A DNA stretch of 64,000 nucleotides from an uncultured Pelagibacteraceae bacterium (GCA_902578305.1 CACHCK010000001.1:183136-247135); one strand, 5' to 3'; shown: positions 22,196-39,133, counted from the first letter of the stretch. The notes: generated by a model not told the origin, from the sequence alone. Numbers and translations are program-made.

Positions 22196-22218
22196 GCGGT
22201 ACACTCATTTACAGCATT

Positions 22219-24295: not shown

Positions 24296-24306
24296 TTTAT
24301 ATTAAT

Positions 24307-24334
24307 TGCTCAGCACAAATCAGCTTGCTGAGCA
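24307..24334. terminator. Hairpin between convergent genes (possible bidirectional terminator)
   Basis: TGCTCAGCA (24307-24315) pairs perfectly with TGCTGAGCA (24326-24334). Flanks are AT-rich, with no clean T-run. Confidence 0.5.
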
Positions 24335-24350
24335 TTAATAATAATACAAT

Positions 24351-24845
24351 TTAGGATTTGTGTTGTACGTAAAGTTGGTGATAGCAAACTTTACCATTTT
24401 TTTCTATGAAGTCTTGGTGGTATTCTTCAGCAGGCCAAAATTTAGCATTCTCTCTTAATTCTGTAACTACTTCGTTTTGATGTTCGCCTGAGTTATTAAT
24501 TTCATCAATTTTGCTTTCCGATATTCTTCTTTCTTCATCAGAATTACAAAAAATAACTGATTTGTATTGTTCACCAATGTCTGGACCTTGACGATTCATC
24601 TGAGTTGGATCATGAATAAAGAAAAACTTGTCTAACAATTCCTCAAACTTTACTTCACTATTATCATACTCAATCTCAACAACTTCAATGTGTCCTGACT
24701 TACCTGTACAGACTTCTTCGTATGTAGGGTTTTCTGTATGCCCGCCGGCATACCCTGAAATTACTTTTTTAACGCCAGACATTTCTTCAAAAAGAACTTC
24801 TACTCCCCAAAAACAACCTGCGCCTAGTATTAACTTTGAAATCAT
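24351..24845 (-). CDS. msrA: Peptide methionine (S)-sulfoxide reductase
   Basis: LGAGCFWGVE active-site motif, GYAGG, and HDPTQMNRQGPDIGEQYKS. Confidence 0.95.
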   Translation of the reverse strand: MISKLILGAGCFWGVEVLFEEMSGVKKVISGYAGGHTENPTYEEVCTGKSGHIEVVEIEYDNSEVKFEELLDKFFFIHDPTQMNRQGPDIGEQYKSVIFCNSDEERRISESKIDEINNSGEHQNEVVTELRENAKFWPAEEYHQDFIEKNGKVCYHQLYVQHKS

Positions 24846-24920
24846 ACCTTAACATAAGGTTTTTTTTATATATGTTAAAGATCAAATTAAATTATATTCC
24901 ATCTAATATTAATACTGATA

Positions 24921-26066
24921 ATGAATAATCAAGATATAAGCATTGGTAAACTCTCAAGGTTAAAGATCTGGATAACTGATAATCATCTGTCTGATGATCA
25001 ATGGTCAAATACAAAAAAATTTATCATCATAAAAATAACTACTGAAGATGGAATTGAAGGTTGGGGAGAAGCATTCTCTATTAATCTTAGAGAAAAGGGT
25101 ATTGCGATTATTATAAAAGAGCTATTTAGAGAAATTTCGAATATTCCAAATCTATCAATAAAGTCTTTTTATAATAAAATTTCATTGTTAAGTGATGGTC
25201 ACAGAGGTTTAGATTTCAGCTCTGCTTCAAGTGCCATTGAAATTGCATTATGGGACATATCAGGGAAGTTAAAAAATCTTCCTTTAAATTCTTTACTAAC
25301 AAAAAGTCCCAAACCAAATGTTCCCATTTATGCTACGTGTTGGAGCGATTTAAAAAAAGACACAAATGACTATTTGAGACAAATAGAAAAATTTTATGGA
25401 AAGAAATATGGGGGGATCAAGATATATCCAATGCTAGATAACGTATCAATTTCAATTCAGTTTGTTGAAAAAGTTAGAGAAATAGTAGGAGATGAATTAC
25501 CGCTAATGCTTGATTTAGCTGTACCTAAAGATTTAGATAAGACAAAATCTTTTTTAAAAGAAGTATCGTCATTTAATCCTTACTGGATAGAAGAGCCTGT
25601 TGATGGTGAGAATATAAAATTACTTACTGAGATCAAAAATGCTTTTAATATGAAAATTGTAACAGGTGAAAAGCAATCAGGCTTGGTCCATTTCAGAGAA
25701 TTAATACACAGAAATGCAGTAGATATATTTAATCCTGATATTTCAGGTATGGGCGGACTCATTGATATTATCACGATATCAAATGAAGCATCAAATAATG
25801 GCATCTCTATTTCTCCACATTGCTGGAATTCAATGTCCGTTTCAGCATCTGCGATGCTTCATGTTTGCTCAAGTATTTCTAATTCAGAAAAGGCTGAAAT
25901 ATTTCCAGATTATATAAACTTTTCAAAGAAATTTTGTGAGTTACCTTTTGATATTGTAGATAATAAAGCACATATAAATAAATCAGCTGGACTTGGTATA
26001 GTTATTCATGAAGATATTTTATCTCGGTTGAGTATTTATTCATTGGATGAAAAGAGTAATGACTGA
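24921..26066 (+). CDS. Enolase-superfamily enzyme (mandelate racemase/muconate-lactonizing family)
   Basis: GWGEAF in the capping domain; barrel positions KIYP, MLDLAV, IEEPV, TGEK and FNPDIS. Confidence 0.85.
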   Translation: MNNQDISIGKLSRLKIWITDNHLSDDQWSNTKKFIIIKITTEDGIEGWGEAFSINLREKGIAIIIKELFREISNIPNLSIKSFYNKISLLSDGHRGLDFSSASSAIEIALWDISGKLKNLPLNSLLTKSPKPNVPIYATCWSDLKKDTNDYLRQIEKFYGKKYGGIKIYPMLDNVSISIQFVEKVREIVGDELPLMLDLAVPKDLDKTKSFLKEVSSFNPYWIEEPVDGENIKLLTEIKNAFNMKIVTGEKQSGLVHFRELIHRNAVDIFNPDISGMGGLIDIITISNEASNNGISISPHCWNSMSVSASAMLHVCSSISNSEKAEIFPDYINFSKKFCELPFDIVDNKAHINKSAGLGIVIHEDILSRLSIYSLDEKSND

Positions 26067-27570
26067 ATCAAACTATCTATTTGATGAAATATTCAAATCT
26101 AACGAAACGAGTCCAAATATTTTTTTGATCAATGAAACTAAAGAGATAAGTTACTTAGAATTCAATGAAATTGTAAATCAAATTTCTAATTACTTAATAG
26201 ATATAAATTTATTACCAGGTGACCGCGTGGCCATACAGGCAGAAAAGAATGTAATTCAACTTGCTACATATGTAGCAACCGTTAAAGCTGGTGGTGTTTA
26301 TCTGCCACTCAATACTGGCTATACCCTAAGTGAATTAGAATATTTCTTCAATGACGCCAAACCTAAGGTGATAATTGTCGATGACAAAATTCAAAATGAA
26401 GTAAAAAACTTAGTGAGCTATTCTTCGGTTTCAATTTTATCATTAAATTTAGATGAAACTGGTTCATTGATTGAGCAGATAAAAAAATATCCAAAAAAAT
26501 TTCAATCTATTAAAAGAAACGAAAATGACTTAGCTGCCATTTTATATACATCCGGTACTACTGGAAAATCAAAAGGAGCGATGCTATCGCATAGAAATTT
26601 GGTTTCAAATTCTGAAGTTTTAAGAAAATTTTGGAAATTTACAGAAAATGATGTTCTTTTACATATGCTACCTATTTACCATACGCACGGTCTTTTTGTT
26701 GCATGTAATCTTCTTGCAATTGTTGGAGGATCAATGATTTTCTTGGAAAAATTTGATACTGAAAAAGCCTTGCTTTGGATGAAAAGAGCCACATCCATGA
26801 TGGGCGTGCCAACTTTTTATACAAGATTGTTGGCAAATGAAAAATTAAATAATAAGTCAGCAAAACACATCAGACTATTTATTTCTGGTTCAGCACCTTT
26901 ACTATCAGAAACTCACATTGAATTTGAAGAAAGAACTGGTAAAAAAATTCTTGAGAGATATGGCATGACAGAAACAAATATGAATATTTCAAATCCATAT
27001 GACGGATTACGAAAAGCAGGTACAGTGGGCATACCTCTTCCAGGCATTGAAATAAGAATAGTCAATGAAGAAGGCAAGGAAGTTGAAGAGGGTCAAATAG
27101 GGACTATTGAACTTAAGGGCGAAAATATTTTCAAGGGGTACTGGGGAATGGAAGAAAAGACCAAAGAATCATTTAAAGATGATGGTTTCTTCATAACAGG
27201 TGATCTCGCAAAGAAAGATGAAAATGGCTACTTTACTATTGTTGGTAGAGATAAAGATATGATTATAAGCGGTGGACTAAATGTTTATCCTAAGGAAATA
27301 GAAGACGTGATAAACGAGTTGCCAAATATCACAGAGTCAGCAGTTTTTGGTGTTCAACATGATGATTTTGGCGAAGCAGTTGTTGCGGCAGTAGTGACAA
27401 CAGATGATAAAAATGACGGTAGTCAAATATTGGATTATACAAAAAATAAAATTGCTAAATATAAACAGCCAAAAAAAATAATATTTATGTCGAATTTACC
27501 TAGAAATTCTATGGGCAAAGTTCAAAAAAATAAATTGAGAGAAAATTATAAAAGTTTATTTAAGAGTTAA
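26047..27570 (+). CDS. AMP-dependent acyl-CoA ligase (MatB/malonyl-CoA synthetase-like)
   Basis: YTSGTTGKSKGAMLSHRNL, YGMTET, FFITGDLA and MGKVQKNKL. It overlaps the enolase-family gene (start 26047 or 26059). Confidence 0.9.
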   Translation: MKRVMTESNYLFDEIFKSNETSPNIFLINETKEISYLEFNEIVNQISNYLIDINLLPGDRVAIQAEKNVIQLATYVATVKAGGVYLPLNTGYTLSELEYFFNDAKPKVIIVDDKIQNEVKNLVSYSSVSILSLNLDETGSLIEQIKKYPKKFQSIKRNENDLAAILYTSGTTGKSKGAMLSHRNLVSNSEVLRKFWKFTENDVLLHMLPIYHTHGLFVACNLLAIVGGSMIFLEKFDTEKALLWMKRATSMMGVPTFYTRLLANEKLNNKSAKHIRLFISGSAPLLSETHIEFEERTGKKILERYGMTETNMNISNPYDGLRKAGTVGIPLPGIEIRIVNEEGKEVEEGQIGTIELKGENIFKGYWGMEEKTKESFKDDGFFITGDLAKKDENGYFTIVGRDKDMIISGGLNVYPKEIEDVINELPNITESAVFGVQHDDFGEAVVAAVVTTDDKNDGSQILDYTKNKIAKYKQPKKIIFMSNLPRNSMGKVQKNKLRENYKSLFKS

Positions 27571-28552
27571 CTTCTATCCAGTTATTGATTTCCTCAACAA
27601 AGAAATCGTCTTGTGGGGAGTTTAGAATTCCAATAATATCATGATAATTAAAGCCTCCTAAATTAGTATCGTTATTAATTATTTTCTTAGGTCCTTTCCA
27701 TTTTTCAAATATTTTTTTAACTCCCTCAGCGTTTACTACTTTATCTTTTTCTTCATAAAATACTAAAAGTGGAATCTTAGTCTCTTGAAATTCAAGTTTC
27801 CTTCCAGAAAATGCCGCCACCCAAAGCTGTCTTGGGAGTTCCCTGTGAAATTCATTGACCCAAAAAGGATCCCATTCTTCATTTGGCAAGTTAAACATTC
27901 TAGGAAAATTAAACTTGTATTGGCTTTTAAAAAATAACCCAGTCGCCGCTAAGAAATAAGGAGGAGATAGCTTAGGAGTCCATGGTGCCACAAGCACCAA
28001 ATGATCAATTTTTTCACTTAATTTCTGATCTTTTGCAGCCATTAATGCAAATGAACCTCCAGCTGAAAAACCCATTAATATCACTTTGTTTCCGATTTTA
28101 TTGCCTACTGCAACAGCTTCGGCTGCATCTTCGAGAAAATTTTTGGCCTCCAGAGATTTTGTAGATTCAAAACCAGAGCCATGGCCAGCTAGTCTTGATA
28201 TAAATAAATTAGCCTTTAATTTTTTGGCAATCTTTACCAAAACTTCTTCTTGTTGACGCCCCGTCGCAAAACTTCCATGAAGATAAACAATTGAATATTC
28301 AGTTTTAATTTTCGCATCATCATGCCATATGATTTTTTTCTTTGCTCGGGGATCAGTATTCTCAAAAAGCAGTTCTTTTTCAGCAATATAGCTTTCAACA
28401 TCTTTATCAATGACAATATCAGGAAAAGTTATTTTTATTGTATTAAATAAATAGGGCAGAGTAATTCCTACAATAAAGATGACTGGTACTATTAAAACAA
28501 TAGCAACTATAAGCAATGCTCGATATAATTTAAACCTGGTAGCCCTAGACAT
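27560..28552 (-). CDS. Membrane-anchored alpha/beta hydrolase (esterase/lipase-like)
   Basis: N-terminal TM, an HG oxyanion region (VYLHGSF) and a GFSAGG nucleophile elbow. Confidence 0.75.
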   Translation of the reverse strand: MSRATRFKLYRALLIVAIVLIVPVIFIVGITLPYLFNTIKITFPDIVIDKDVESYIAEKELLFENTDPRAKKKIIWHDDAKIKTEYSIVYLHGSFATGRQQEEVLVKIAKKLKANLFISRLAGHGSGFESTKSLEAKNFLEDAAEAVAVGNKIGNKVILMGFSAGGSFALMAAKDQKLSEKIDHLVLVAPWTPKLSPPYFLAATGLFFKSQYKFNFPRMFNLPNEEWDPFWVNEFHRELPRQLWVAAFSGRKLEFQETKIPLLVFYEEKDKVVNAEGVKKIFEKWKGPKKIINNDTNLGGFNYHDIIGILNSPQDDFFVEEINNWIEVNS

Positions 28553-28928
28553 TTACACTTGTATATGAGCAAATTTTGTTACCATCTGGGTCTCTGATGT
28601 ATGCATAATAAACATTACTGTCGCTTGGTCTAAAACCTGGATCCCCTTCATTTTGTGCTCCAAGTCCTAAAGCAGTTTTGTGAAACTTATCAACTTGTTC
28701 TTTTGACTCGGTCAAAAAGGATATCTGTGTACCATTTCCAAATGTAACAGGCTTTCCATTTGCCGGTTTGGTTATATAGAACTCAACATCTTGTTTCCCC
28801 TCTCTAGCATAACCTACACACACCTCATCCTCATAAATTGAAACTATTCCCATTACTGCGAGGACAACATCGTAGAATGCTTTAGATTCTTTTAAATTAC
28901 TTGACCCAACCATTACGTATCCTCTCAT
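28545..28928 (-). CDS. VOC/glyoxalase-family protein
   Basis: 127 aa. The N-terminal beta-alpha-beta pattern (SKAFYDVVL) and the C-terminal YIRDPDGNKI are typical of the family. Confidence 0.75.
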   Translation of the reverse strand: MRGYVMVGSSNLKESKAFYDVVLAVMGIVSIYEDEVCVGYAREGKQDVEFYITKPANGKPVTFGNGTQISFLTESKEQVDKFHKTALGLGAQNEGDPGFRPSDSNVYYAYIRDPDGNKICSYTSVNV

Positions 28929-28940
28929 TATCTATCCTTT

Positions 28941-30104
28941 CTATGAATATTGCTTTGATGTTACTTCCTCAAGCATCAGAATCATTTTGGCTTTATAGTC
29001 TTCATCAGTTGCTGAGTCGGTTTCTAAAACAGAAAAAAAACTTGCAACAACATTTGTTTCTAAGTTAATCATTAAAAATTGCCCACCGTATCCAGAATGC
29101 CCAATCCAATTATTAGATTTCATAGTTTGATTTGCATAATAAACATATTTTTCATCTTTTAAGTGCATATATTTTGGACCTTTTTCAGAAACTGTATCAT
29201 CAATAAATTTACGAGAGCCAGCTAATCTATTTCTGATCCCAAGACCTTTTCTTGAGAAATGCAGTCCCATGCGTAGCAAATCTCTTGCAACAAGACAACC
29301 ACCACCGGACAGCCATGGCATCCCACCTCTATCTGTTGCCATATACAAACCATCTTCAAGACCCATTGCTTCTACTGACGAGAGAAGCCACTCTCGCAGC
29401 TCTCTTCCACTTAATTTTTCAATTAGTAGAGCAATCACATCGCTGTTTGCTGACTTATAGAATGCTTTATCAGAATTGTTTATTACAGAATTAGTTCCAT
29501 CTGTTTGAATACTGTTCAAGAAATCTTCTTGAAACTTTTCATCTTTATCTTTATCTGGTATTCGCCAGCCACCAACAGTTTCATGCATAAATGATGTTGA
29601 ATACGGATCAGTATAATCTTCGGTAAAAGCATTAATAATGTTCATATTTAATACGTTTTGAACCGTCGCTTTTGAATATCCTTCTCCAATATTGGGCAAA
29701 TAATAGCCAATAGGTTTTTCCAATTGCAATTCACCTTTCTCAACTAATTCACCGACAAATAGATTTAAAAACATCTTTGAAATTGACATTATTGTATGTG
29801 GTGTTTCAGAAGAGAAATCTTTTGCATATTTCTCAAAAAATATTTCTTGCCCTCTTCCAACTATTAAAGAACAAAAAGATTTATGGCTCGTCATTTCCCT
29901 TACTGAGTTTATTTTATCTATTTCATCTTTACTGTTCTCATTAAGCAAAAGAACGTAATCTGATCTTAACAAAAGACCATATCTGTTTATTTTATGAAGA
30001 TTCCGATAGCCAGTTCTTCTATATTCAGGAAGGTTCCATTTAGCTTTATTGTCGCGTAATGTTACAAGAGTTGGGTTTGGGGTATCGACTAACTTATTAA
30101 CCAT
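28941..30104 (-). CDS. Serine hydrolase of the beta-lactamase/transpeptidase-like family
   Basis: SxxK motif SISK within HTIMSISKMF, and a late HSGYGGQ (KTG-like position). Confidence 0.8.
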   Translation of the reverse strand: MVNKLVDTPNPTLVTLRDNKAKWNLPEYRRTGYRNLHKINRYGLLLRSDYVLLLNENSKDEIDKINSVREMTSHKSFCSLIVGRGQEIFFEKYAKDFSSETPHTIMSISKMFLNLFVGELVEKGELQLEKPIGYYLPNIGEGYSKATVQNVLNMNIINAFTEDYTDPYSTSFMHETVGGWRIPDKDKDEKFQEDFLNSIQTDGTNSVINNSDKAFYKSANSDVIALLIEKLSGRELREWLLSSVEAMGLEDGLYMATDRGGMPWLSGGGCLVARDLLRMGLHFSRKGLGIRNRLAGSRKFIDDTVSEKGPKYMHLKDEKYVYYANQTMKSNNWIGHSGYGGQFLMINLETNVVASFFSVLETDSATDEDYKAKMILMLEEVTSKQYS

Positions 30105-31521
30105 TAATTATATTAGGTTTGATTTTTGAATGATTAAAGATTTCTTCATAATATTTTCCAATTTGTATCACTTTTTCATCTGATTTATTTTTTCCAATTA
30201 ATTGCATACCCATTGGCAGTCCCTCAGCATTAAAGCCAACTGGTAATGAGATGGTAGGCAATTGAAACATGCTTGCAAATACCGTAACTTCCATCCAGCG
30301 ATGGTATGTGTCCATCTGGGTTTTTGAAATACTTTTTGGAAAATCTATTTCTTTGTTAAATGGAAATAATTGTGCTGATGGTAAAGCAATAAAATCATAT
30401 TTTTCAAATATACTATCGACATACTTTTTATAATTATTATACCAATCAATGGAATTAGAAACTTGATCGTCTGAAACTTTACTTCCTTCTTCGTATTCCC
30501 ATTTAGCTGGAAAGCTTAGTTCATTAAAATCCTTAATTTGCATTGCAGAAATATCATTAAATGTGATCTTTGACCTGAGAGTGCACCATGTATCCCATAG
30601 TTTATCTGGATCAATATTAACTTTGCATTGTTCTAAAAATATCTTTTTGTCTGTTTCCACGAGCTTGTTTAAAGAAGCTTCGCATAATTCTATAATTCCT
30701 TCTTCAAAAGAATAGTGTTCAACAAAGTTACTAATCCAACCAATCTTTATTTCACTAGATAAATTTTTAGTTATTGACTGAAATGAACCCTCAAAGTTAA
30801 ACGAGTAGGGATCTTCTATATCTTTTCCAACGACGGCATCTAAAAAAATACTTAAGTCATCAGGTGTTCTGGCAATTCCACCTGGAGTCGTCAATACAGG
30901 AAATTTACTGGTTTCTCTTTTATCAGATATCAGTCCAGGAGATGGTCTAAAGCCATATAGATTTGTGAAAGCTGCAGGGTTTCTGCAAGAGCCCATCATG
31001 TCCGTACCATCAGAAAATGGTATAAGGCAGCTGGCTACAGCTGCTGACGCTCCTCCGCTTGAGCCGCCAGGTGATAGATTATAGTTATAAGGATTTGAAA
31101 CTGGATCAAATAATTTATTCTTTGTATGAGATCCAATTGCTAGTTCTGCCATATTTGATTTTCCAATAATTGTGGCTCCTTGATGCTTTATTTTTTTTAC
31201 AATTAACGAGTCATTTTGTGGAAAATTATTTCGATATTCAAGTATTCCATAAGTAGTTGGCAGTCCAGTTACGTCGAATAATTCTTTTGAAACAAATGGA
31301 AGTCCAAATAAAATTTGTTTTCTTGTAACATCAACTTTTTGTTCATCCTTTGCCTTTGCTTTATCAATAATCCAATCTTTGTCTCTAAGTGACACAATGG
31401 CGTTAAGCTTAGGATTAAGCTTTTCAATATTGGATAAGTATTCTTGAAAAAGTTCTTCAACTTTTATTTCTTTTTTAGAAATTAAATCAATTTGATCCCG
31501 AACAGATAAATGAGTAATCAT
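30097..31521 (-). CDS. Amidase (amidase-signature family)
   Basis: GGSSGGASAAVA signature with flanking GKSNMAE and GTDMMGSCRNPAAF. Confidence 0.9.
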   Translation of the reverse strand: MITHLSVRDQIDLISKKEIKVEELFQEYLSNIEKLNPKLNAIVSLRDKDWIIDKAKAKDEQKVDVTRKQILFGLPFVSKELFDVTGLPTTYGILEYRNNFPQNDSLIVKKIKHQGATIIGKSNMAELAIGSHTKNKLFDPVSNPYNYNLSPGGSSGGASAAVASCLIPFSDGTDMMGSCRNPAAFTNLYGFRPSPGLISDKRETSKFPVLTTPGGIARTPDDLSIFLDAVVGKDIEDPYSFNFEGSFQSITKNLSSEIKIGWISNFVEHYSFEEGIIELCEASLNKLVETDKKIFLEQCKVNIDPDKLWDTWCTLRSKITFNDISAMQIKDFNELSFPAKWEYEEGSKVSDDQVSNSIDWYNNYKKYVDSIFEKYDFIALPSAQLFPFNKEIDFPKSISKTQMDTYHRWMEVTVFASMFQLPTISLPVGFNAEGLPMGMQLIGKNKSDEKVIQIGKYYEEIFNHSKIKPNIING

Positions 31522-31533
31522 CTACGAGGTTTT

Positions 31534-32724
31534 TTATCTAGCTCCAAAAATACTGACCTTGACGAGCTCTCTAACATCATCCAATGTGGCTGAACGAGGG
31601 TTAGTGCCAAAGGCTGTATCAATCATTGACTTTTCAGATATTCTCTCAATACAATCTTCTGGAACACCAATTTCATTTAAACCCTTGGGTATCTTAATTC
31701 GATCTAGTATTTTTTCCATGCTTTCGATGAAATGATTTGCAGTATGATCTTTATATTGCATTGCCTGAGCCATTCTCATCACTTTCTCTTCCATATCTGG
31801 TAGGTTGTATCTTAGAACTGCTGGCAAAATAATAGCATTAGTTAGTCCGTGATGCGTATTAAATTCTGCCCCAACCATATGCGCAATAGCGTGAACAAGA
31901 CCCAGCCCTTTTATAAAAGAAACTCCCCCCAAACACGAAGCAACAAGCATAGCCCCTCTTGCTTCAAGATTATTTGGTTCTTCTACGGCTGTAATGAGTG
32001 ATTTAGAAATTAAGTTTAGACTTTCGAGTGCGGCACCGTCACATAAGGGGTGAAAACCTGGAACACAATAACCCTCAATTGAGTGGATCATTGCATCTGC
32101 ACCTGTCCATGCTGTAAGATTTGAGGGTAATCCCAATGTTAGTTCAGGATCGAGCAATGCCAATGAAGGCTTCAATTCAGGATGCATTATACAAAGTTTA
32201 ATTCCTTGTTTGGTATCTGTTACCATTGCTGTACTTTCTGTTTCAGCGCCTGTTCCAGCTGTTGTAGGAATTGTAATAAGTTTAGGAAATTTATTATCTG
32301 GTCCAATGACTTGAGGTGTCTTTTCCCACTCAAAGTCAAATAACTCAATTTCATTATTAGCGGTTAGACAAATTGACTTGCCACCATCCATGGCACTTCC
32401 GCCGCCAATAGCAATTATTGCATCGTGATTGTTATCATTGAAAAGTTTTTTTCCTGATGCAATTTCATCATCTCTTGGGTTGGGTGAAATTTTTGAGTAA
32501 ATACCTGAATTAATTTTCGATTTTTTTAAAATTTCGACCAAGTTATCAATGAAGGGAAGATCAACACTGCCACTATCAGTGACAATAAGTGGATTGGTTA
32601 TCTCATTCTCAGAACAATAATTTCCAATTTCGGAAAATCTACCTGGACCATATGCTATCGGTACAGGGAAACCCCAATCTTGAGGGGCAAGAATTTCTTC
32701 TTTATTCAAATTGAAAAGCGTCAT
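31534..32724 (-). CDS. Iron-containing (type III) alcohol dehydrogenase, GbsB-like candidate
   Basis: GGGSAMDGGK, and metal-ligand histidines in HSIEGY and HAIAHMVGAEFNTHHG. Confidence 0.9.
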   Translation of the reverse strand: MTLFNLNKEEILAPQDWGFPVPIAYGPGRFSEIGNYCSENEITNPLIVTDSGSVDLPFIDNLVEILKKSKINSGIYSKISPNPRDDEIASGKKLFNDNNHDAIIAIGGGSAMDGGKSICLTANNEIELFDFEWEKTPQVIGPDNKFPKLITIPTTAGTGAETESTAMVTDTKQGIKLCIMHPELKPSLALLDPELTLGLPSNLTAWTGADAMIHSIEGYCVPGFHPLCDGAALESLNLISKSLITAVEEPNNLEARGAMLVASCLGGVSFIKGLGLVHAIAHMVGAEFNTHHGLTNAIILPAVLRYNLPDMEEKVMRMAQAMQYKDHTANHFIESMEKILDRIKIPKGLNEIGVPEDCIERISEKSMIDTAFGTNPRSATLDDVRELVKVSIFGAR

Positions 32725-32744
32725 GGTTTATTTATTCAAATTAA

Positions 32745-33785
32745 TTAAGATGTCATTGATTTTAAGACTATTGACCGATCAATTTCACCAATTAGTTCTC
32801 CTGAAACTGCATCGATTACAGGATATTTTTTGTCAGTGTCAGCTATCTGATTAATTAAAGTATCGATTTTAACGTCACTTTTAATACACTCATTGCCCTG
32901 GGCAAACAGAGTCTTTGTATCCTCACAGCATTCTTTTCTTGCACATTTACCCGCACTTAAAACTTTGTATTTGGGAACGTCTTCAGTGAAGTCTTTTACA
33001 TATTGATCTACGGGATTTGCAACAATTTCCTCTGGTGTACCAACTTGTGATATTTCTCCATCTTTCATAATCGCAATATGATCACCCATTTTAATAGCTT
33101 CAGAAAAATCATGTGTAATGAATACCATTGTTTTTTGAACCATTTTTTGAATGCTAATTAACTCGTCTTGCATTTCCCTTCTTATCAATGGATCCAGTGC
33201 TGAGAAAGGTTCGTCAAAAATTAGAATCTCTGGATCTACTGCTAGAGCTCTAGCTAGTCCAACTCTTTGTTGCATTCCACCTGACAATTCACGAGGGTAA
33301 TGTTGATCCCAACCTTCTAATCCTACAAGTTTAAGTGTTTCCATTGACTTATCTAATCGATCTTTTTTCTTTACTCCCCTTATTTCAAGTCCATAGCCAA
33401 TATTTTCTATCACTCTTCGATGAGGGAAAAGACCAAAGTGCTGAAATACCATACTCATTCTATTACGCCTCAGATCTGTTAAATCCCTATTGCTCATCAA
33501 TGTTACATCTTGATTGTCAATTTTTACCTCACCTGCTGTTGGCTCAATCAGTCTTGATAAACATCTTACTAATGTAGATTTACCACTACCTGATAAACCC
33601 ATTACAACGAACGTTTCACCTTTTTGAACTGAGAAACTTACATCTTTAACTGCAACCACATGTCCAGTTTTTTCTTGCACTTCACTTCTTGAAAGATTTT
33701 TGTCTAAATTTGTAAGAACATTTTTTTCATTTGGCCCAAATACCTTCCATATATTTGTGCATACTATTTTGTCATTTTTTTCCAT
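32745..33785 (-). CDS. proV: Glycine betaine/proline-type ABC transporter ATP-binding protein
   Basis: Walker A GLSGSGKST, signature LSGGMQQRV, Walker B ILIFDEP, and a C-terminal CBS-like tail. Confidence 0.9.
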   Translation of the reverse strand: MEKNDKIVCTNIWKVFGPNEKNVLTNLDKNLSRSEVQEKTGHVVAVKDVSFSVQKGETFVVMGLSGSGKSTLVRCLSRLIEPTAGEVKIDNQDVTLMSNRDLTDLRRNRMSMVFQHFGLFPHRRVIENIGYGLEIRGVKKKDRLDKSMETLKLVGLEGWDQHYPRELSGGMQQRVGLARALAVDPEILIFDEPFSALDPLIRREMQDELISIQKMVQKTMVFITHDFSEAIKMGDHIAIMKDGEISQVGTPEEIVANPVDQYVKDFTEDVPKYKVLSAGKCARKECCEDTKTLFAQGNECIKSDVKIDTLINQIADTDKKYPVIDAVSGELIGEIDRSIVLKSMTS

Positions 33786-33871
33786 TATTTTTGAGTGCTT
33801 TATCTGCTGAATGTTATACTATGTTGAAGATTTTTGAATAATTTATTTAACCTTGAGGAATACTATTTTAC

Positions 33872-35992
33872 ATGGCATTAACCCAGGATACATCGCTTTT
33901 ATCTTCTAAAAGTAGTACTCAGAGTCTAATCATACCTGGGCTAATTTTTGCTGCAATTCTAGCTTCAATCTGGCTTGCATTCCAAGGTGAAGATGTTTCA
34001 GAATTTCCTGTCTTTATAACAGATGCTTTTACTTTTACAGCTTGGGTCAATGCTGGTGAAGATTTTCTAAAAGATAATATTAAAGTTTATACAAGGATGG
34101 TTGCTGGTTATGTAAAAGACCTTTATTGGATGCTCGAAGATTTTTTACTAGATTCATCTTGGGTATTTATAGCGGCGCTATTGCTTATTCCATCACTTGC
34201 ATTTGGTGGAATTAAATTAGGTTTTCTTGTTCTTTTTGGCACCATGTATTGGGGAATGGTTGGGCTTTGGGATTCTGCTATGGAAACTCTTGCTCTTATG
34301 GGTTTATCAGTATTCTTATCTGTAGCCGTTGGAGTGATACTTGGTATTTTCTGTGCATTAAGTGATCGTTTTGAGAGAAATATGAAACCAGCTCTCGATA
34401 TAATGCAAGTGATGCCTGCGTTTGTTTATCTTATCCCCGCAATGTTTTTCTTTGGAATCGGAGGTGCACCTGCAATTCTTGCAACAATGATTTATTCAAT
34501 GCCTCCTATTATTCGTCTCACAAACTTAGGTATACGTCAGGTCCCCAATGAAACAGTAGAAACAGCAACAGCTTTTGGTTCTAGTAAAAGTCAAATTTTA
34601 TTTAAAGTACAAATTCCATTAGCTCTGCCAAGCATCATGATGGGCGTTAACCAAACAATAATGATGGCATTGGCATTGGTTGTTTTAGCAACGTTTATCG
34701 GGGCTCAAGGTCTAGGTTCAGACATTTGGGTATCGATAAAAAAACTAGAAGTCGGAGCTGCTTTGGAAGGAGGTATTTGCGTTCTTTTAATGGCAATCAT
34801 GTTCGATAGATTTGGTAAAGCCGCTAGTCGGGAGACAGTGACTTTGCCATCCGATAGTCAAAAATTTTATCTTTTACCGCAAACATGGGATATTTATCCC
34901 ATTGCTAGACAGGTTGAAAAACCTCTACAGTTAATTCATTTTGCATTTGCATTTGTATTCTCAAGCGTCATTCGAATATTTTCTTTCATTTTAAATTCAG
35001 TAATTTCTTTATTTAATAAGGATTATGGCTCAGCTATTGCACAATTTATAAATGCTCATTATTTCTTTTTCTCTGGATTATTAATATTAATTGGCATTAT
35101 TTATTATGATGCAAACGTTGCTGCAATAGGAACATTTCCTGATGCATGGAATCTGTCAATAAGAGAAGAAATTTCTGCTGGTGTAAAATCATTGGTTGTA
35201 AATGATACGTTTATTTCAATAACCAAAACAATCAGATCAACTGTTGTTATTTACCTTCTAAGACCATTTGATTTTTATCTAACATATTTACCTTACTGGT
35301 TTACAATTGGGGCATTGGTTCTAATCAGCTGGAAATCTGTTGGAATTAGATTTGCGATTATTACTGCCATCCTTCTAGCATTCATCGGCGCTTGCAATAT
35401 TTGGACTGAAGCAATGATTACTCTTTCATCAGTTCTTATATCAGTTCTTTTATGTTTTGTAATTGGTGTGCCAATAGGTATCTTAGCATCTTACAGTAAG
35501 AGATTTCAAAATATCAACGAGGTAATATTAGATGCAATGCAAACATTGCCATATTTTTGTTACCTTGTTCCAGTTTTAATGTTTTTTGGTGGTGGGGCAT
35601 TTTCTGCATTACTTGCAACAATTATATACTCCATACCTCCAATAATACGTTTAACTGTATTGGGCCTGTCTCAAGTTTCTTCCACATATTCAGAAGTATC
35701 AAAGTCATTTGGAGGCACTACAATTCAGACTCTCAATAAGATAAAATTTCCTCTAGCAGTTCCTAGTTTGGTTATGGGTTTCAATCAAACAGTCATGATG
35801 GCTTTTGCGATGCAAATTGTTACACCTCTCATTGGTGGTAAAGGGCTAGGTCTTGAGGTATTTAATGGCTTAGCTCGATCAGATACTGGTAGAGCTCTTG
35901 CTGCTGGCATAGGAATTTGTTTATTAGCCATGATAATTGACCGTATCAGTCTTGCATGGACAAAAAAGCAAAGAGATGCCCTAGGTTTATAG
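33872..35992 (+). CDS. proW: Fused double-permease of a betaine-type ABC transporter (two ProW-like halves)
   Basis: Two EAA-loop copies are present: TATAFGSSKSQILFKVQIPLALPSIMMGVNQTIMMAL and VSKSFGGTTIQTLNKIKFPLAVPSLVMGFNQTVMMAF. Confidence 0.9.
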   Translation: MALTQDTSLLSSKSSTQSLIIPGLIFAAILASIWLAFQGEDVSEFPVFITDAFTFTAWVNAGEDFLKDNIKVYTRMVAGYVKDLYWMLEDFLLDSSWVFIAALLLIPSLAFGGIKLGFLVLFGTMYWGMVGLWDSAMETLALMGLSVFLSVAVGVILGIFCALSDRFERNMKPALDIMQVMPAFVYLIPAMFFFGIGGAPAILATMIYSMPPIIRLTNLGIRQVPNETVETATAFGSSKSQILFKVQIPLALPSIMMGVNQTIMMALALVVLATFIGAQGLGSDIWVSIKKLEVGAALEGGICVLLMAIMFDRFGKAASRETVTLPSDSQKFYLLPQTWDIYPIARQVEKPLQLIHFAFAFVFSSVIRIFSFILNSVISLFNKDYGSAIAQFINAHYFFFSGLLILIGIIYYDANVAAIGTFPDAWNLSIREEISAGVKSLVVNDTFISITKTIRSTVVIYLLRPFDFYLTYLPYWFTIGALVLISWKSVGIRFAIITAILLAFIGACNIWTEAMITLSSVLISVLLCFVIGVPIGILASYSKRFQNINEVILDAMQTLPYFCYLVPVLMFFGGGAFSALLATIIYSIPPIIRLTVLGLSQVSSTYSEVSKSFGGTTIQTLNKIKFPLAVPSLVMGFNQTVMMAFAMQIVTPLIGGKGLGLEVFNGLARSDTGRALAAGIGICLLAMIIDRISLAWTKKQRDALGL

Positions 35993-36113
35993 ATCTAATT
36001 TATATACATATTTCCTGATACTTTTCTTCAAAAAATGTTGATAAAGCGGTTTACTTATTCATCTTTTTTGGTCTAAAATTATTTATTAATTAATTAATAA
36101 AAAGGGGAAATTA

Positions 36114-37118
36114 ATGAAAAATTCATTATTTGCAAAAACTTTTGCTGCCCTGATTTTGTCTTCTTTTTTAGTTCTTTCGGCAGGTACTGCCAACGCTAAG
36201 CGTTTAACAGCTGCTGTTGCTGACTGGACTGGTGGAGAATTAACATGTCAGGTTGCAGTTGCTATCCTTGAAGAAGAGCTAGGCTACAGAGTTGATAGAA
36301 TAGAATTCGCTTCAGGAACAGGTCTATGGGAAGCTATTGCCGCTGGCGATATTGACTTCGCATGTGAAAGTTGGCCAAGTTATGCTGAGGCTGACGATGT
36401 AATGATCAACATGAATCTTGTTTATGACGGAGAAGTTGTAAAAGAGTATTCTGGTGATGGATCTGTTGATGCGTACACAAGTGGTATCATTGGAATGTCA
36501 GATTACTATGTTCCAAAATACTTTGTTGACGCTAACCCAGATTTTAAAGACTGGTCAGATTTAAATAAATTCAAAGATCAATTTGCGACACCTGAAACAG
36601 GTTCAAAAGGTAGATTGATTGGATGTCCAGTTGCTGGTTGGAACTGTCATGACCAAAAAAGATTAGATCTTTTAGGAATTGATTTTGAAGCATCAGAACT
36701 AGGTACTGAGGTTGCAGCTCTAGCGGAAGCTCAAGGAGCTTATGATAGAGGTGAAGCATTCCTTCTGTATCTTTGGGAACCACACTTTTTCTTCGGTAAG
36801 AATGAAATGGTTGGTGTAAAACTACCAGCATACAAATACTGTGATAGTTTTACTGAAGCTAATAACTGGCAAGATTGTGGAACTGCAGCATGGCCTGCTA
36901 CAGGTTGGGATAAAGACTACACGATGAATTATATGAATCCTGAAGTTATGTCTAGACCTGAGAACGCTGAAGCAGTTGCATTCTTCAAAAAAATGGCTTT
37001 CTCTAACACGGATCAAGCAAAAATGCTTGTAAGAGTTGGTGACGACGGATTATCTGTCGAAGAAGCTGTTGCTGAATGGAAAAACAGTACAGACGAATGG
37101 AAAGCTTGGCTTCCGTAA
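36114..37118 (+). CDS. proX: Periplasmic glycine betaine/quaternary amine-binding protein (ProX/OpuAC family)
   Basis: Signal peptide; Trp-rich ligand-box candidates (ADWTGGE, CESWPSY, LYLWEPHF). Confidence 0.85.
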   Translation: MKNSLFAKTFAALILSSFLVLSAGTANAKRLTAAVADWTGGELTCQVAVAILEEELGYRVDRIEFASGTGLWEAIAAGDIDFACESWPSYAEADDVMINMNLVYDGEVVKEYSGDGSVDAYTSGIIGMSDYYVPKYFVDANPDFKDWSDLNKFKDQFATPETGSKGRLIGCPVAGWNCHDQKRLDLLGIDFEASELGTEVAALAEAQGAYDRGEAFLLYLWEPHFFFGKNEMVGVKLPAYKYCDSFTEANNWQDCGTAAWPATGWDKDYTMNYMNPEVMSRPENAEAVAFFKKMAFSNTDQAKMLVRVGDDGLSVEEAVAEWKNSTDEWKAWLP

Positions 37119-37143
37119 GTCTAAATAGCTAAATCAGAAAATT

Positions 37144-37178
37144 AAGGCCTTGTTACTTTTGTGCAAGGCCTTTTTTTT
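37144..37178 (+). terminator. Rho-independent terminator after proX
   Basis: AAGGCCTTG (37144-37152) pairs with CAAGGCCTT (37164-37172), and the T-run continues through 37178. Confidence 0.85.
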
Positions 37179-37189
37179 AGTTAATTTTT

Positions 37190-38101
37190 ATGATCACCTC
37201 ATCAAGACATCCTTACTATTATACAATTAGCTTTGCATTATTAATCGCTGCGGGTATGTGGGGTTTATTCTGGATCCCTCAAAGAGCGTTAGAGGCTGGT
37301 GGTTTAACAGGCGGATGGGCAACGATTTCTCAAATGGTTATACCTTTTGCAATGCTGCTTCCAATATCACTTTGGAGGCTCTATAAAGGTCAGTCTTTTG
37401 GCCTAGAGTATCCTCTAATTGGACTTTTGTTTGGAGGAGGTATTGCTTGCTACGCTAATAGTTTTTTACTGACAGATGTAGTTAGAGCTTTAATACTCTT
37501 TTATATAACCCCAGTTTGGACAACTATTTTTGAAATAGTATTTCTTAGACAAATTCCACGTTTTTATAGATACATAACATTAGCTCTTGCACTATCTGGT
37601 GTTTGGATAGTTTTTGGTCAAGAAGGCGTGATACCCTTACCACAAAATTCTGGTGATTGGATTGCTTTATTAGGCGGAATTCTTATTGCCGCATCAGCAG
37701 TTAGAATGGAAATAAAAAAGCCAGAGGGAATATATCCTATATTATTTTCATTCTTTTTTTATGGAGGCTTATTTACATTATTACAATCATATTTCTTGAG
37801 CGACTACCTAGGTGATGCTCCATCAATAGAGTCATGGGTTGCAATGATGCCGTGGCTAATCTTAATTGCAATTTTATTTCATATACCGACAAATATAGTG
37901 ATCTTAGGTGCACCAAGTAGAATTGGTGCAGGCATATTTTCTATAATTATACTTTTTGAAATAGTTGTAGGAACTTTCAGTGCCGCGGTATTAACAGATG
38001 AGCTTATTGGATGGCGAGAAATATTAGGCAGCTCTTTCATTATATTTGCTGGATTAACAGAAATAATATTTGCATCAAAGACTGAAGAAGATACGGGCTA
38101 A
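37190..38101 (+). CDS. DMT superfamily (EamA-like) transporter
   Basis: 303 aa, about 10 TM spans, with two-repeat architecture. Confidence 0.8.
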   Translation: MITSSRHPYYYTISFALLIAAGMWGLFWIPQRALEAGGLTGGWATISQMVIPFAMLLPISLWRLYKGQSFGLEYPLIGLLFGGGIACYANSFLLTDVVRALILFYITPVWTTIFEIVFLRQIPRFYRYITLALALSGVWIVFGQEGVIPLPQNSGDWIALLGGILIAASAVRMEIKKPEGIYPILFSFFFYGGLFTLLQSYFLSDYLGDAPSIESWVAMMPWLILIAILFHIPTNIVILGAPSRIGAGIFSIIILFEIVVGTFSAAVLTDELIGWREILGSSFIIFAGLTEIIFASKTEEDTG

Positions 38102-39028
38102 CTATAATTGATTGAGTACTTTAATGTGTTCAACTGTAGTACCGCAACATCCACCTATAATTTGCGCTCCAGCATCCTTCCACTTTTTTGCTTCAATTAA
38201 ATAATCATCAGGAGAAATTACATTGCTCATGTCGTAGTGTGGAAAATTAAATACCGCTACTTCTGGATACGCCATAACAGGAAGGTCATATACTTCTTTA
38301 AGTTCTTTAATACTTTGTTCTATTACATTAATTTCACAATGCATTATTCCTACAGCATCCAATTTATGATGTTTGACATTACTAATCATTTTTTTAAAAC
38401 TATAGTCATAGTCTGTAGTAAGGGCTATTAACCCGTCTTTATTTCTAGATGAGAATCCAGCCCACACAGGCAATCCAGCCTTACTTGCTGAGTCAAAAAT
38501 TATTTCAATTCGATCTGGTCGATACATTAACTCTAGTAGAATAAAATCACACCCATTATCGGCTAGAAAAAAAGCGAGCTCATCAAAAGACTTTTGAAAA
38601 TATTCGGGTGTGAGTTTTTTTTTAAATTTCTCTCTTTCCTCTTGTGTTTCAAAAGCATCCTCATACGGTATTTGATGAGACAAGGACCCAGCTATAAGTA
38701 CATCATCTCTACCACATTCTTCCCTTGCTTCCAGAGCTGCATTTATTGCACTTAGATTTATTTCTTTGAATTGATTATCTACCCCCGCGGTTTCTAAGAT
38801 CATTCGATTTGTTGCATAAGTATTTGTAGTTATAATACTTGAGCCAGCCTCAATATAATCTTTATGTATTTGCTTTAATGTATCACTCTCTAAGGAAGCT
38901 GTGCCACACCAAGAATTATCCATTTTAATACCACGGTTTTCAAGCTCCGAACCAGTGGCCCCATCAAGAAGAATATTTTCTCCGGCATGAATACGTTTCA
39001 TTAAATTTTCATATCTTTTGCTCATCAT
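38102..39028 (-). CDS. Homocysteine S-methyltransferase family (betaine- or SMM-homocysteine methyltransferase candidate)
   Basis: LLDGATGSELE N-terminus, NTY, and zinc-ligand motifs including IIGGCCGTTVEHI. Confidence 0.85.
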   Translation of the reverse strand: MMSKRYENLMKRIHAGENILLDGATGSELENRGIKMDNSWCGTASLESDTLKQIHKDYIEAGSSIITTNTYATNRMILETAGVDNQFKEINLSAINAALEAREECGRDDVLIAGSLSHQIPYEDAFETQEEREKFKKKLTPEYFQKSFDELAFFLADNGCDFILLELMYRPDRIEIIFDSASKAGLPVWAGFSSRNKDGLIALTTDYDYSFKKMISNVKHHKLDAVGIMHCEINVIEQSIKELKEVYDLPVMAYPEVAVFNFPHYDMSNVISPDDYLIEAKKWKDAGAQIIGGCCGTTVEHIKVLNQL

Positions 39029-39133
39029 TATTTTTTAGCATTTATAGTTTTAATTAGTAAGTAGAAACTTAGGAAAAGGATTTACTTTTTATGACTTTAT
39101 GGTCTATAAGGTCTGATCATTAAGGAGAACAGA

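What the first reader, a model, noticed from the sequence alone, without database searches (positions are those of the whole stretch)
27560..33785. The betaine-type transporter ATPase heads a six-gene hydrolase/dehydrogenase operon
On the minus strand, six genes follow one another with gaps or overlaps of 20 nt or less. In order they are proV, a type III Fe-alcohol dehydrogenase, an amidase-signature enzyme, a beta-lactamase-fold serine hydrolase, a VOC protein and a membrane-anchored alpha/beta hydrolase. The permease and binding protein are transcribed divergently. Type III Fe-ADH is the family of Bacillus GbsB choline dehydrogenase. Together with an amidase and two ester/amide hydrolases, this suggests the imported substrate is not free glycine betaine. 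It may be an esterified or amidated quaternary amine (choline esters, acyl-carnitine-like or betaine-amide compounds) that is trimmed and oxidised toward betaine. Betaine would then enter the demethylation genes further along the window.
Basis: inference. Interest (0 to 1): 0.55.

Follow-up and report, generated by a model that had tools for sequence, protein, structure and literature searches.

The report
SAR11 onium-solute importer with hydrolase genes
In an abundant ocean bacterium (SAR11), a betaine-type uptake system of unknown substrate is inherited together with a small set of amide/ester-cutting and alcohol-oxidising enzymes; this points to an unidentified methylated nutrient, but the compound and the single-operon layout are not established.

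Summary
Six minus-strand genes (proV-type ATPase, Fe-ADH, amidase-signature enzyme, NylB-like beta-lactamase-fold hydrolase, VOC protein, membrane-anchored alpha/beta hydrolase) have junctions of 20, 12, -8, 12 and -8 nt. They lie divergent from a fused double permease and an OpuAC binding protein.

The genome is a 1.24-Mb SAR11 MAG. "proV heads the operon" is a derived state. In most relatives an opposite-strand EamA gene separates proV from the ADH, so the enzyme block is its own unit there. Tight spacing is also the norm in this window (32 of 43 same-strand junctions are 20 nt or less).

Transporter and enzymes nevertheless travel together. Of 36 Pelagibacter species with any of the binding protein, amidase or hydrolase, 31 have all three; about 111 have none.

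The binding protein keeps TmoX's four-tryptophan cage but not its TMAO-binding glutamate, and it is not DmpX. The genome has a separate DmpX-type system beside BetA and carnitine genes. The ADH does not reach the GbsB model.

Best reading: a SAR11-restricted module for import and breakdown of an unidentified trimethylammonium or sulfonium solute. The ester/amide-of-choline idea is possible but untested. I found no description of this module.

The parts
32745..33785 (-). proV-type ABC ATPase (346 aa)
   Evidence: Passes TIGR01186 proV subfamily (355.4 bits > 326.6); Walker A GLSGSGKS and LSGG signature. 75-92% identical in SAR11 relatives.
31534..32724 (-). Type III iron-containing alcohol dehydrogenase (396 aa), substrate unknown
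   Evidence: PF00465 plus PF25137. Best NCBIfam hits are all far below cut-off: 4-hydroxybutyrate DH 289, ErcA 282, FucO 274, GbsB 242. Best PDB hit is an NAD-dependent methanol DH, 244 bits.
30097..31521 (-). Amidase-signature enzyme (474 aa), cytoplasmic
   Evidence: PF01425 275 bits. PRK07486 amidase subfamily 441 bits, just under the 465 cut-off. GGSSGG at residue 152. PDB neighbours are generic: GatA, urethanases, aryl acylamidase.
28941..30104 (-). Beta-lactamase-fold serine hydrolase, NylB-like (387 aa), cytoplasmic
   Evidence: PF00144. Nearest solved relative is 6-aminohexanoate-dimer hydrolase NylB, 84 bits, E 6e-23. S107xxK110 and H336-S-G motifs. Narrow family: 58 cluster representatives at E<=1e-30 among 1.84 billion.
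28545..28928 (-). VOC/glyoxalase-fold protein (127 aa)
   Evidence: PF00903 34.8 bits. Only uncharacterised PDB relatives. Found in every SAR11 locus that reaches that far.
27560..28552 (-). Alpha/beta hydrolase with an N-terminal membrane anchor (330 aa); catalytic domain probably periplasmic
   Evidence: Abhydrolase_1/6 and Hydrolase_4. G-F-S161-A-G elbow; hydrophobic helix at 12-30. Four basic residues precede the helix and acidic residues follow it, which suggests N-in/C-out (inference). In the cluster only in genus g1; duplicated in G017 and G020.
33786..33871 (.). 86-nt divergent intergenic region between proV and the permease gene
   Evidence: Read from the sequence. Only weak promoter-like matches, no more than in shuffled sequence. 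No Rfam family.
33872..35992 (+). Fused double ProW-type permease (706 aa)
   Evidence: Two BPD_transp_1 stretches; TIGR03416 417 bits in two stretches. Fused form kept in all SAR11 relatives and in one GC-rich alphaproteobacterium.
36114..37118 (+). Periplasmic OpuAC-family binding protein with a TmoX-like tryptophan cage, ligand unknown
   Evidence: PF04069 130 bits. Best PDB hit is TmoX 4XZ6, 64 bits. W38, W87, W176 and W221 align with the cage Trp55/102/177/222. The TMAO-binding Glu131 aligns with Ser or Gly (residues as listed in PMC8918994). Only 24% identical to SAR11 TmoX. RNA-library contigs over this gene have far higher depth than those over its neighbours.
37190..38101 (+). EamA/DMT family membrane transporter
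   Evidence: PF00892. An EamA gene accompanies the module in all lineages examined.
38102..39028 (-). Homocysteine S-methyltransferase family protein (BHMT-like)
   Evidence: PF02574 170 bits; below cut-off for the BHMT and MmuM models. One to two paralogues lie inside the module in Pelagibacter.
24921..27570 (+). Overlapping enolase-superfamily gene and malonyl-CoA-synthase-type ligase, convergent on the cluster; link uncertain
   Evidence: MR_MLE domains. Ligase passes PRK07514 malonyl-CoA synthase (725 bits > 558). Adjacent to the cluster in family f1 only.

Best explanation
The region is a SAR11-restricted accessory module that pairs a high-affinity ABC importer with a set of cytoplasmic enzymes.

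The importer consists of a periplasmic OpuAC-type binding protein, a fused double permease and a proV-type ATPase. The enzymes are an Fe-dependent alcohol dehydrogenase, an amidase-signature hydrolase, a NylB-like beta-lactamase-fold hydrolase and a VOC-fold protein. In this genus there is also a membrane-anchored alpha/beta hydrolase that probably faces the periplasm.

The binding protein has the four-tryptophan cage that holds a trimethylammonium or dimethylsulfonium head group. It lacks the glutamate that makes TmoX specific for TMAO. It therefore most likely captures an onium solute other than TMAO, DMSP or plain glycine betaine.

Inferred, not shown: after import, the amidase and the NylB-like hydrolase cut an amide or ester bond. 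The ADH oxidises a hydroxyl group, helped by a BADH-like aldehyde dehydrogenase that lies in the block in sister genera and elsewhere in this genome. The methyl groups then pass to the neighbouring homocysteine methyltransferase, DMG dehydrogenase and sarcosine oxidase genes.

In this lineage the ancestral antisense EamA gene between proV and the ADH was lost. This fused the ATPase gene and the enzyme operon into one co-directional six-gene run with no room for a promoter in the 20-nt spacer.
For: Gene calls, families and catalytic motifs.

Co-inheritance in 201 Pelagibacterales genomes:
- Hydrolase ortholog in 25/26 genomes of the window's family and 33/147 Pelagibacter species, none in six other genera.
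- Binding protein in 23/26 and 34/147.
- Amidase in 22/26 and 35/147.
- In Pelagibacter, 31 of the 36 carriers have all three.

Neighbourhood: it is kept despite strand flips and insertions in five lineages.

Binding protein:
- Cage residues are conserved and the TMAO glutamate is missing (PMC8918994).
- The genome's other OpuAC protein is the DmpX type, 233 bits to 7YLE (PMC10030565).

Other support:
- A BADH-like ALDH lies between ADH and amidase in genera g5 and g6, and next to VOC in Pelagibacter.
- EamA is lost in the window's subclade.
- Contigs from RNA libraries bridge proV/ADH, ADH/amidase, VOC/hydrolase and abh/VOC.
Against: - No ligand or enzyme activity is known for any component.
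- In most relatives the enzymes are a separate transcription unit, divergent from an EamA gene.
- The nearest non-SAR11 copy of the transporter lies beside a GcvT-like gene, without any of the enzymes (proV 69%, binding protein 36% identical).
- Non-SAR11 homologues of the hydrolase lie in unrelated contexts.
- SAR11 genomes are highly syntenic and related species are not independent, so the co-occurrence overstates the linkage.
- Tight spacing is the rule in this window.
- RNA-library contigs may contain DNA carry-over and do not prove a single transcript.
- Neighbouring genes differ by lineage (GBBH-like dioxygenase, BisC/TorA-like reductase, GcvT-like), so the substrate could differ or be multiple.
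Confidence: 0.5

Rival explanations
1. The first reader's specific version (a special case of the best explanation). The imported compound is a choline or carnitine ester or a betaine amide. The hydrolases trim it, the Fe-ADH acts like GbsB to oxidise choline, and the glycine betaine produced feeds BHMT, DMGDH and Sox.
For: - A cage-type binding protein.
- Fe-ADH, plus a BADH-like ALDH in sister lineages (TIGR01804 421-435 bits).
- BHMT-like, DMGDH-like and SoxBDAG genes in the window.
- In some Pelagibacter genomes the module abuts choline/carnitine/gamma-butyrobetaine genes. Those genes were described as an Arctic SAR11 betaine island (PMC12421898).
Against: - The ADH reaches 242 of the 550 bits needed for GbsB and scores higher on three other models.
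- The ALDH is also below the BADH cut-off.
- The genome already encodes BetA above its cut-off (745 > 732), plus carnitine dehydrogenase-like and BKACE-like genes, beside its other transporter.
- The binding protein scores 27 bits on the ChoX model.
- No evidence bears on ester or amide substrates.
Confidence: 0.15
2. The enzyme block is functionally independent of the transporter. It could, for example, salvage small omega-hydroxy or omega-amino acid amides, esters or oligomers, or 3-hydroxypropionate-type carbon skeletons. It merely lies next to the transporter in a compact, syntenic genome.
For: - It is a separate unit behind an antisense EamA gene in most relatives.
- The ADH's top model is 4-hydroxybutyrate dehydrogenase.
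- The hydrolase's nearest solved relative acts on omega-aminohexanoate dimers.
- A malonyl-CoA-synthase-type ligase is convergent on the block in this family.
- Transporter and hydrolase homologues occur separately outside SAR11.
- Short gaps are the norm.
Against: - Transporter, amidase and hydrolase are gained and lost together in Pelagibacter (31 of 36 carriers have all three).
- They stay within about 10-14 kb of each other through several rearrangements.
- In the window's lineage there is no room for a separate promoter in the 20-nt spacer.
Confidence: 0.22
3. The module serves sulfonium or oxidised-methionine salvage. Candidate compounds are S-methylmethionine, a sulfoxonium compound or methionine sulfoxide. 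This would supply reduced sulfur and methionine to a bacterium that lacks MetE and MetH.
For: - One to three homocysteine S-methyltransferase paralogues lie in or beside the module.
- MsrA is adjacent in both families.
- A cytoplasmic BisC/TorA-family S/N-oxide reductase (982 bits) sits inside the transporter operon in the RS40-type lineage.
- An aromatic cage also suits sulfonium groups, as in DmpX (PMC10030565).
- SAR11 depends on external methionine, DMSP or betaine for methionine (PMC12478193).
Against: - It gives no role to the amidase, the NylB-like hydrolase or the ADH.
- The methyltransferases are below every equivalog cut-off.
- MsrA is a housekeeping gene.
- The reductase is lineage-specific.
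Confidence: 0.08

Closest known systems
TmoXWV, the TMAO-specific ABC importer of Ruegeria pomeroyi and Pelagibacter HTCC1062 (PDB 4XZ6; PMC8918994)
   Same: An OpuAC-fold periplasmic binder. It is the best solved relative (64 bits). All four cage tryptophans are conserved. It is a betaine-family ATPase/permease system of marine Alphaproteobacteria.
   Different: Only about 24% identical to SAR11 TmoX, whereas bona fide TmoX proteins share about 51%. The Glu that binds the TMAO oxygen is replaced by Ser or Gly. The protein carries a Trp- and Cys-rich insertion. Genomes such as RS40 carry TmoX, DmpX and this protein side by side. It is found in about a quarter of the Pelagibacter species sampled.
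Bacillus subtilis choline-to-betaine route (OpuB/OpuC uptake with GbsB type III ADH and GbsA BADH)
   Same: A type III Fe-ADH next to a betaine-family ABC transporter. A BADH-like ALDH lies beside the ADH in sister genera.
   Different: The ADH and ALDH fail the GbsB and BADH equivalog cut-offs (242/550 and about 430/669). The genome has BetA. The module additionally holds an amidase, a NylB-like hydrolase and a VOC protein, which have no counterpart in the Bacillus system.
Nylon-oligomer hydrolases NylA (amidase signature) and NylB (beta-lactamase fold) of Paenarthrobacter KI72
   Same: The same pairing of an amidase-signature enzyme with a NylB-type serine hydrolase. NylB is the hydrolase's nearest solved relative. 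That the pair acts on omega-amino-acid amides is from my own knowledge.
   Different: The similarity is low (84 bits over residues 79-288). NylA is not among the amidase's 18 best PDB hits. The context here is an onium-solute transporter, not nylon by-products.
Arctic SAR11 'glycine betaine' genomic island (PMC12421898) and the DmpXWV DMSP importer (PMC10030565)
   Same: The same ecological theme: SAR11 accessory islands joining a betaine-type ABC system to enzymes for methylated osmolytes. This genome has such an island 175 kb away: betA, DmpX-type XWV, DddP, GBBH-like, carnitine DH-like, BKACE-like and ALDH genes. In G206 that island directly abuts this module.
   Different: That island's published gene list has no amidase or beta-lactamase-fold hydrolase. 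Its binding protein is the DmpX type. [quoted passage not shown]

Membership tests
Betaine/proline/choline (ProU/OpuA-type) ABC importer | ATPase of the proV subfamily | tested here: met
   TIGR01186 355.4 bits > 326.6 cut-off; Walker A and LSGG motifs.
Betaine/proline/choline (ProU/OpuA-type) ABC importer | ProW-type permease and OpuAC-fold binding protein | tested here: met
   TIGR03416 417.5 bits > 363, summed over the two fused halves. PF04069 129.7 bits > 21.2.
E. coli ProX / S. meliloti ChoX equivalogs (glycine betaine or choline binders) | Score above the curated equivalog cut-off | tested here: not met
   NF008334 ProX 39.9 bits < 215; TIGR03414 ChoX 27.5 bits < 379.
TmoX (TMAO-binding protein) | Four-tryptophan aromatic box (Trp55/102/177/222 of 4XZ6) | tested here: met
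   W38, W87, W176 and W221 align with them. W38, W87 and W221 are invariant in alignment A1; W176 is offset by one column in MAFFT.
TmoX (TMAO-binding protein) | Glu131 (Glu114 in HTCC1062), which hydrogen-bonds the TMAO oxygen and is essential for binding (PMC8918994) | tested here: not met
   The column holds Ser (phmmer) or Gly (MAFFT) in all five orthologues. The local alignment contains gaps, so the exact equivalent residue is uncertain, but no acidic residue is nearby.
DmpX (DMSP-binding protein) | Close sequence similarity to RnDmpX (7YLE) | tested here: not met
   23.6 bits for the window protein, against 232.8 bits for the genome's other OpuAC protein.
GbsB-type choline dehydrogenase | Score above the NF053866 equivalog cut-off | tested here: not met
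   241.7 bits < 550; ranked fifth among Fe-ADH models. Activity is not testable here.
Amidase signature family | PF01425 domain with the Gly/Ser-rich signature | tested here: met
   275.5 bits; GGSSGG at 152-157, followed by a GTD..GS.R.PA stretch.
NylB-like / class-C beta-lactamase-related serine hydrolases | SxxK nucleophile motif and box III (K/H-S/T-G) | tested here: met
   S107-I-S-K110 and H336-S-G; PF00144 57.9 bits > 27; NylB 84 bits. Substrate not testable.
Single operon headed by proV | Co-directional genes with no internal promoter or terminator, transcribed as one RNA, and an order conserved in relatives | tested here: inconclusive
   Gaps are 20 nt or less. The terminator scan found no more sites in the region than in shuffled sequence (3 found against 6.6 expected); one weak minus-strand site lies inside the ADH gene. 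RNA-library contigs bridge four of the five junctions, but DNA carry-over is not excluded. The proV-ADH adjacency is absent from G024, genera g5 and g6, and Pelagibacter, where an antisense EamA gene intervenes.

The most novel reading that the evidence does not exclude
The module is the uptake-and-breakdown route for a class of marine onium metabolites not yet recognised as SAR11 substrates. These would be trimethylammonium or sulfonium compounds carrying an amide or ester bond, for example deacylated betaine-lipid head groups or acyl-carnitine/acyl-choline-type conjugates. In this genus the membrane-anchored esterase would pre-process them in the periplasm. Uptake would be through a binding protein that appears to be very highly transcribed in the ocean.
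Probability: 0.15. Interest if true: 0.75.

Novelty: new variant of a known kind. Interest (0 to 1): 0.5.

Why it matters
SAR11 is the most abundant heterotroph in the surface ocean, and its binding proteins largely define which dissolved compounds it removes.

The binding proteins of strain HTCC1062 have been profiled experimentally (PMC11485210). This third OpuAC-type protein is distinct from TmoX and DmpX. It is absent from most Pelagibacter species sampled but nearly universal in a second SAR11 family, and I found no assigned ligand for it. Contigs from metatranscriptome libraries cover it at far higher depth than its neighbours.

Identifying its ligand, and the reactions of the co-inherited amidase, NylB-like hydrolase and ADH, would add a compound class to the SAR11 carbon, nitrogen and methyl budget. 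A cultured carrier exists (Pelagibacter sp. RS40), so the question is testable.

If the enzymes prove unrelated to the transporter, the finding reduces to ordinary gene packing in a streamlined genome.

Tried and rejected
1. Context of beta-lactamase-fold homologues outside SAR11.
- Only 2 of 300 other alphaproteobacterial genomes had one. Their neighbourhoods share nothing with the module.
- Three distant cluster representatives lie on contigs of 2-2.6 kb and were uninformative.

2. Context of the nearest non-SAR11 binding protein (G230). It gave a transporter plus a GcvT-like gene, with no enzymes.

3. Promoter and terminator scan. Matches were no more frequent than in shuffled sequence, so it says nothing either way.

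4. Rfam scan of 22000-40000. No family found.

5. PDB searches for the VOC protein and the alpha/beta hydrolase. Only uncharacterised or marginal hits.

6. Literature. Searches for SAR11 with amidase and Fe-ADH, for RS40, and for SAR11_0797 found no description of this module.

7. Depth in RNA-library contigs cannot rank genes. Parts of the cluster with low cover are not evidence of silence.

8. One earlier-findings look-up failed and one returned nothing.

9. Rejected: that the window's transporter is the cell's main glycine betaine/DMSP system. That role is assigned to a PotD-family protein in HTCC1062 (PMC11485210), and the binding protein fails the ProX model here.

10. Not run: structure prediction, because it returns no coordinates for pocket analysis; and complex prediction, because no binding claim is made.

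Full report
**What is there.** The window comes from a 1.24-Mb, 34-contig, about 95% complete genome of the order Pelagibacterales (SAR11). Close homologues are labelled Candidatus Pelagibacter or Pelagibacteraceae.

The six minus-strand ORFs are exactly as described. Their junctions are +20, +12, -8, +12 and -8 nt. In order:
- **ATPase.** An ABC ATPase that passes the proV subfamily model.
- **ADH.** A type III Fe-alcohol dehydrogenase.
- **Amidase.** An amidase-signature enzyme (GGSSGG present; 441 bits on the PRK07486 amidase model against a 465 cut-off).
- **Hydrolase.** A beta-lactamase-fold serine hydrolase with SxxK and HSG motifs.
- **VOC.** A 127-aa VOC protein.
- **Alpha/beta hydrolase.** It has a GFSAG elbow and a single N-terminal hydrophobic helix. 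Four basic residues precede the helix, so the catalytic domain probably faces the periplasm (orientation is inference).

None of the other enzymes has a signal peptide or a membrane segment. Divergently, 86 nt away, lie a 706-aa fused double permease and an OpuAC-family binding protein with a signal peptide. These are followed by an EamA transporter and, on the opposite strand, a homocysteine-S-methyltransferase-family gene. DmdA-like, DMG-dehydrogenase-like and SoxBDAG genes follow.

**Is the tight spacing meaningful?** Not by itself. In this window 32 of 43 same-strand junctions are 20 nt or less (median 3 nt) and about 95% of the sequence is coding. The promoter and terminator scans found no more sites than in shuffled sequence, and no Rfam family is present.

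**Operon structure in relatives.** Within the genus, four genomes including the window's have the same six-gene run. In two of them (G017, G020) the alpha/beta hydrolase is duplicated, so the run has seven genes. The most divergent member of the genus (G024) differs, as do a widespread metagenomic lineage, two sister genera and all Pelagibacter carriers. In all of these an opposite-strand EamA gene lies between proV and the ADH. Its start is about 40-120 nt from the ADH start.

By parsimony that layout is ancestral. The enzyme genes were a separate unit, divergent from EamA. Loss of EamA in the window's subclade left a 20-25-nt spacer with no room for a promoter. So "proV heads a six-gene operon" is a local, derived fusion.

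Contigs assembled from four metatranscriptome libraries (two studies) bridge these junctions:
- proV/ADH (32366-33083)
- ADH/amidase (31208-32536 and 30993-32349)
- VOC/hydrolase (28903-29599)
- abh/VOC (28137-28784)

This is compatible with co-transcription but does not prove it, because such libraries can contain DNA.

**Are transporter and enzymes linked?** Yes, at the level of inheritance. I searched 201 Pelagibacterales genomes at least 80% complete.

| Gene | Window's family | Pelagibacter species | Six other genera |
|---|---|---|---|
| Hydrolase orthologue | 25/26 | 33/147 | 0 |
| Binding-protein orthologue | 23/26 | 34/147 | 0 |
| Amidase orthologue | 22/26 | 35/147 | 0 |

In Pelagibacter 36 species carry at least one of the three and 31 carry all three. 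The exceptions are in 90-97% complete assemblies, and one amidase (G142) is broken by stops.

The genes stay within about 7-14 kb of one another although order and strand differ:
- **Pelagibacter type.** ProX and permease | proV | EamA(-) | ADH, amidase, EamA, methyltransferase | hydrolase(-), MsrA(-), methyltransferase(-), VOC(-), ALDH(-).
- **Sister genera.** A BADH-like ALDH lies between ADH and amidase.
- **Constant set.** Transporter, ADH, amidase, NylB-like hydrolase, VOC, EamA and at least one methyltransferase.
- **Variable parts.** The alpha/beta hydrolase is in the cluster only in this genus. The convergent enolase-superfamily and malonyl-CoA-synthase-type pair is there only in this family.

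Related species are not independent samples, so this is good but not conclusive evidence of a functional unit.

Outside SAR11 the link dissolves. The hydrolase family is small (58 representatives at E<=1e-30), and its rare alphaproteobacterial homologues sit in unrelated contexts. The nearest foreign copy of the transporter lies next to a GcvT-like gene only.

**What does the transporter carry?** The binding protein fails the E. coli ProX and ChoX models. Its best solved relative is TmoX of Ruegeria pomeroyi (4XZ6, 64 bits).
- **Cage.** The four cage tryptophans (Trp55/102/177/222) align with W38, W87, W176 and W221. Phe220 becomes Tyr.
- **TMAO glutamate.** Glu131 binds the TMAO oxygen, and TMAO binding is lost when its HTCC1062 counterpart (Glu114) is mutated. 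It aligns with Ser or Gly in all orthologues (residue roles from PMC8918994).
- **Identity.** The protein is only 24% identical to genuine SAR11 TmoX.
- **Paralogues.** Genomes such as Pelagibacter sp. RS40 carry TmoX, a DmpX-type protein and this protein together.
- **This genome.** The only other OpuAC protein is the DmpX type (233 bits to the DMSP-bound structure 7YLE; PMC10030565). It lies 175 kb away, next to betA, DddP, GBBH-like, carnitine-dehydrogenase-like, BKACE-like, ALDH and acetoacetate-CoA ligase genes. That island resembles the one described in Arctic SAR11 (PMC12421898).

I infer an onium head group on a ligand that is neither TMAO nor, probably, DMSP or plain betaine. In HTCC1062 the broad betaine/DMSP transporter is a PotD-family protein (PMC11485210).

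**What do the enzymes do?** This is not determined.
- **ADH.** It scores 289 bits on 4-hydroxybutyrate DH, 282 on ErcA, 274 on lactaldehyde reductase and 242 on GbsB, all far below the cut-offs. The GbsB argument is therefore family-level only, and BetA is already present.
- **Hydrolase.** Its nearest solved relative is the 6-aminohexanoate-dimer hydrolase NylB.
- **Amidase.** It is generic.

Together with the BADH-like ALDH of sister lineages, the set fits hydrolysis of an amide or ester followed by alcohol-to-acid oxidation. No compound is implicated.

Lineage-specific neighbours hint at several possibilities: a GBBH-like dioxygenase; a cytoplasmic BisC/TorA-family S/N-oxide reductase with a GcvT-like gene inside the transporter operon of RS40; and MsrA with extra methyltransferases. 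These point to gamma-butyrobetaine- or carnitine-like compounds, N- or S-oxides, or sulfonium/methionine salvage. I hold these as rivals.

**Verdict.** The most likely reading (about 0.5) is a SAR11-restricted import-plus-catabolism module for an unidentified onium solute, fused here into one transcription unit by loss of an antisense gene. The specific choline/carnitine ester or amide idea is a minority special case (about 0.15). Functional independence of the enzyme block remains a serious rival (about 0.2).

I found no description of this module in the searchable literature. Its proteins are annotated only generically, for example as 'glycine betaine ABC transporter substrate-binding protein' and 'serine hydrolase'. 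It is a new variant of a known kind, of moderate interest, and directly testable in a cultured strain.

Noticed in passing
outside the window: G000 contig C1:5500-24000 (loci L023, L041): A second methylated-osmolyte island in the same genome. It holds betA (passes cut-off), DmpX-type proXWV, a DMGDH-like gene, a methyltransferase, DddP DMSP lyase (787 bits > 600), GBBH-like dioxygenase, carnitine-dehydrogenase-like, BKACE-like and BADH-like ALDH genes, acetoacetate-CoA ligase and a TmpA-like dioxygenase. It resembles the published Arctic SAR11 island, but in a different SAR11 family.
   Followed up: partly
window 24921-27570: An enolase-superfamily gene (weakly acid-sugar-dehydratase-like) overlaps a ligase by 20 nt. 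The ligase passes the malonyl-CoA synthase model (725 bits > 558). The pair converges on the cluster with an 11-nt overlap and is kept next to it only in this SAR11 family.
   Followed up: partly
L030:5528-9044 (Pelagibacter sp. RS40) and L024: In the RS40-type lineage two genes lie between the permease and the binding-protein gene of the same transporter. One is a cytoplasmic BisC/TorA-family S/N-oxide reductase (982 bits, cut-off 1018). The other is a GcvT-like gene whose best model is the C-terminal half of TMAO demethylase. A GC-rich alphaproteobacterium (L060) pairs the transporter with the same GcvT-like gene.
   Followed up: partly
window 36114-37118: Contigs from four metatranscriptome libraries give summed depths of about 1400-9500 over the binding-protein gene, against 3-70 over the permease, ATPase and enzyme genes. 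The runs were selected with a query that did not include this gene. Contig depth is a poor measure, so this is only a hint of very high expression.
   Followed up: no
whole genome G000: Only two OpuAC-family genes were found and neither is a TmoX orthologue. The canonical SAR11 TMAO binding protein was therefore not found in this 95%-complete genome.
   Followed up: partly
L015:6521-8455 and L016:10530-12461: The membrane-anchored alpha/beta hydrolase is tandemly duplicated in two same-genus genomes. The copies are 44% and 52% identical to the window's protein.
   Followed up: no
G142:C40:10919-12025; G129 and G189 hydrolase genes: The amidase orthologue in one Pelagibacter genome carries five in-frame stops. 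Two hydrolase orthologues carry one TAA each. This may be decay of the module or assembly error.
   Followed up: no
L060:3500-4714: The proV-type ATPase of a 61%-GC alphaproteobacterium is 69% identical to the window's. Its binding protein is only 36% identical and its fused permease about 39-43%. The ATPase is unusually conserved, or has been exchanged.
   Followed up: no
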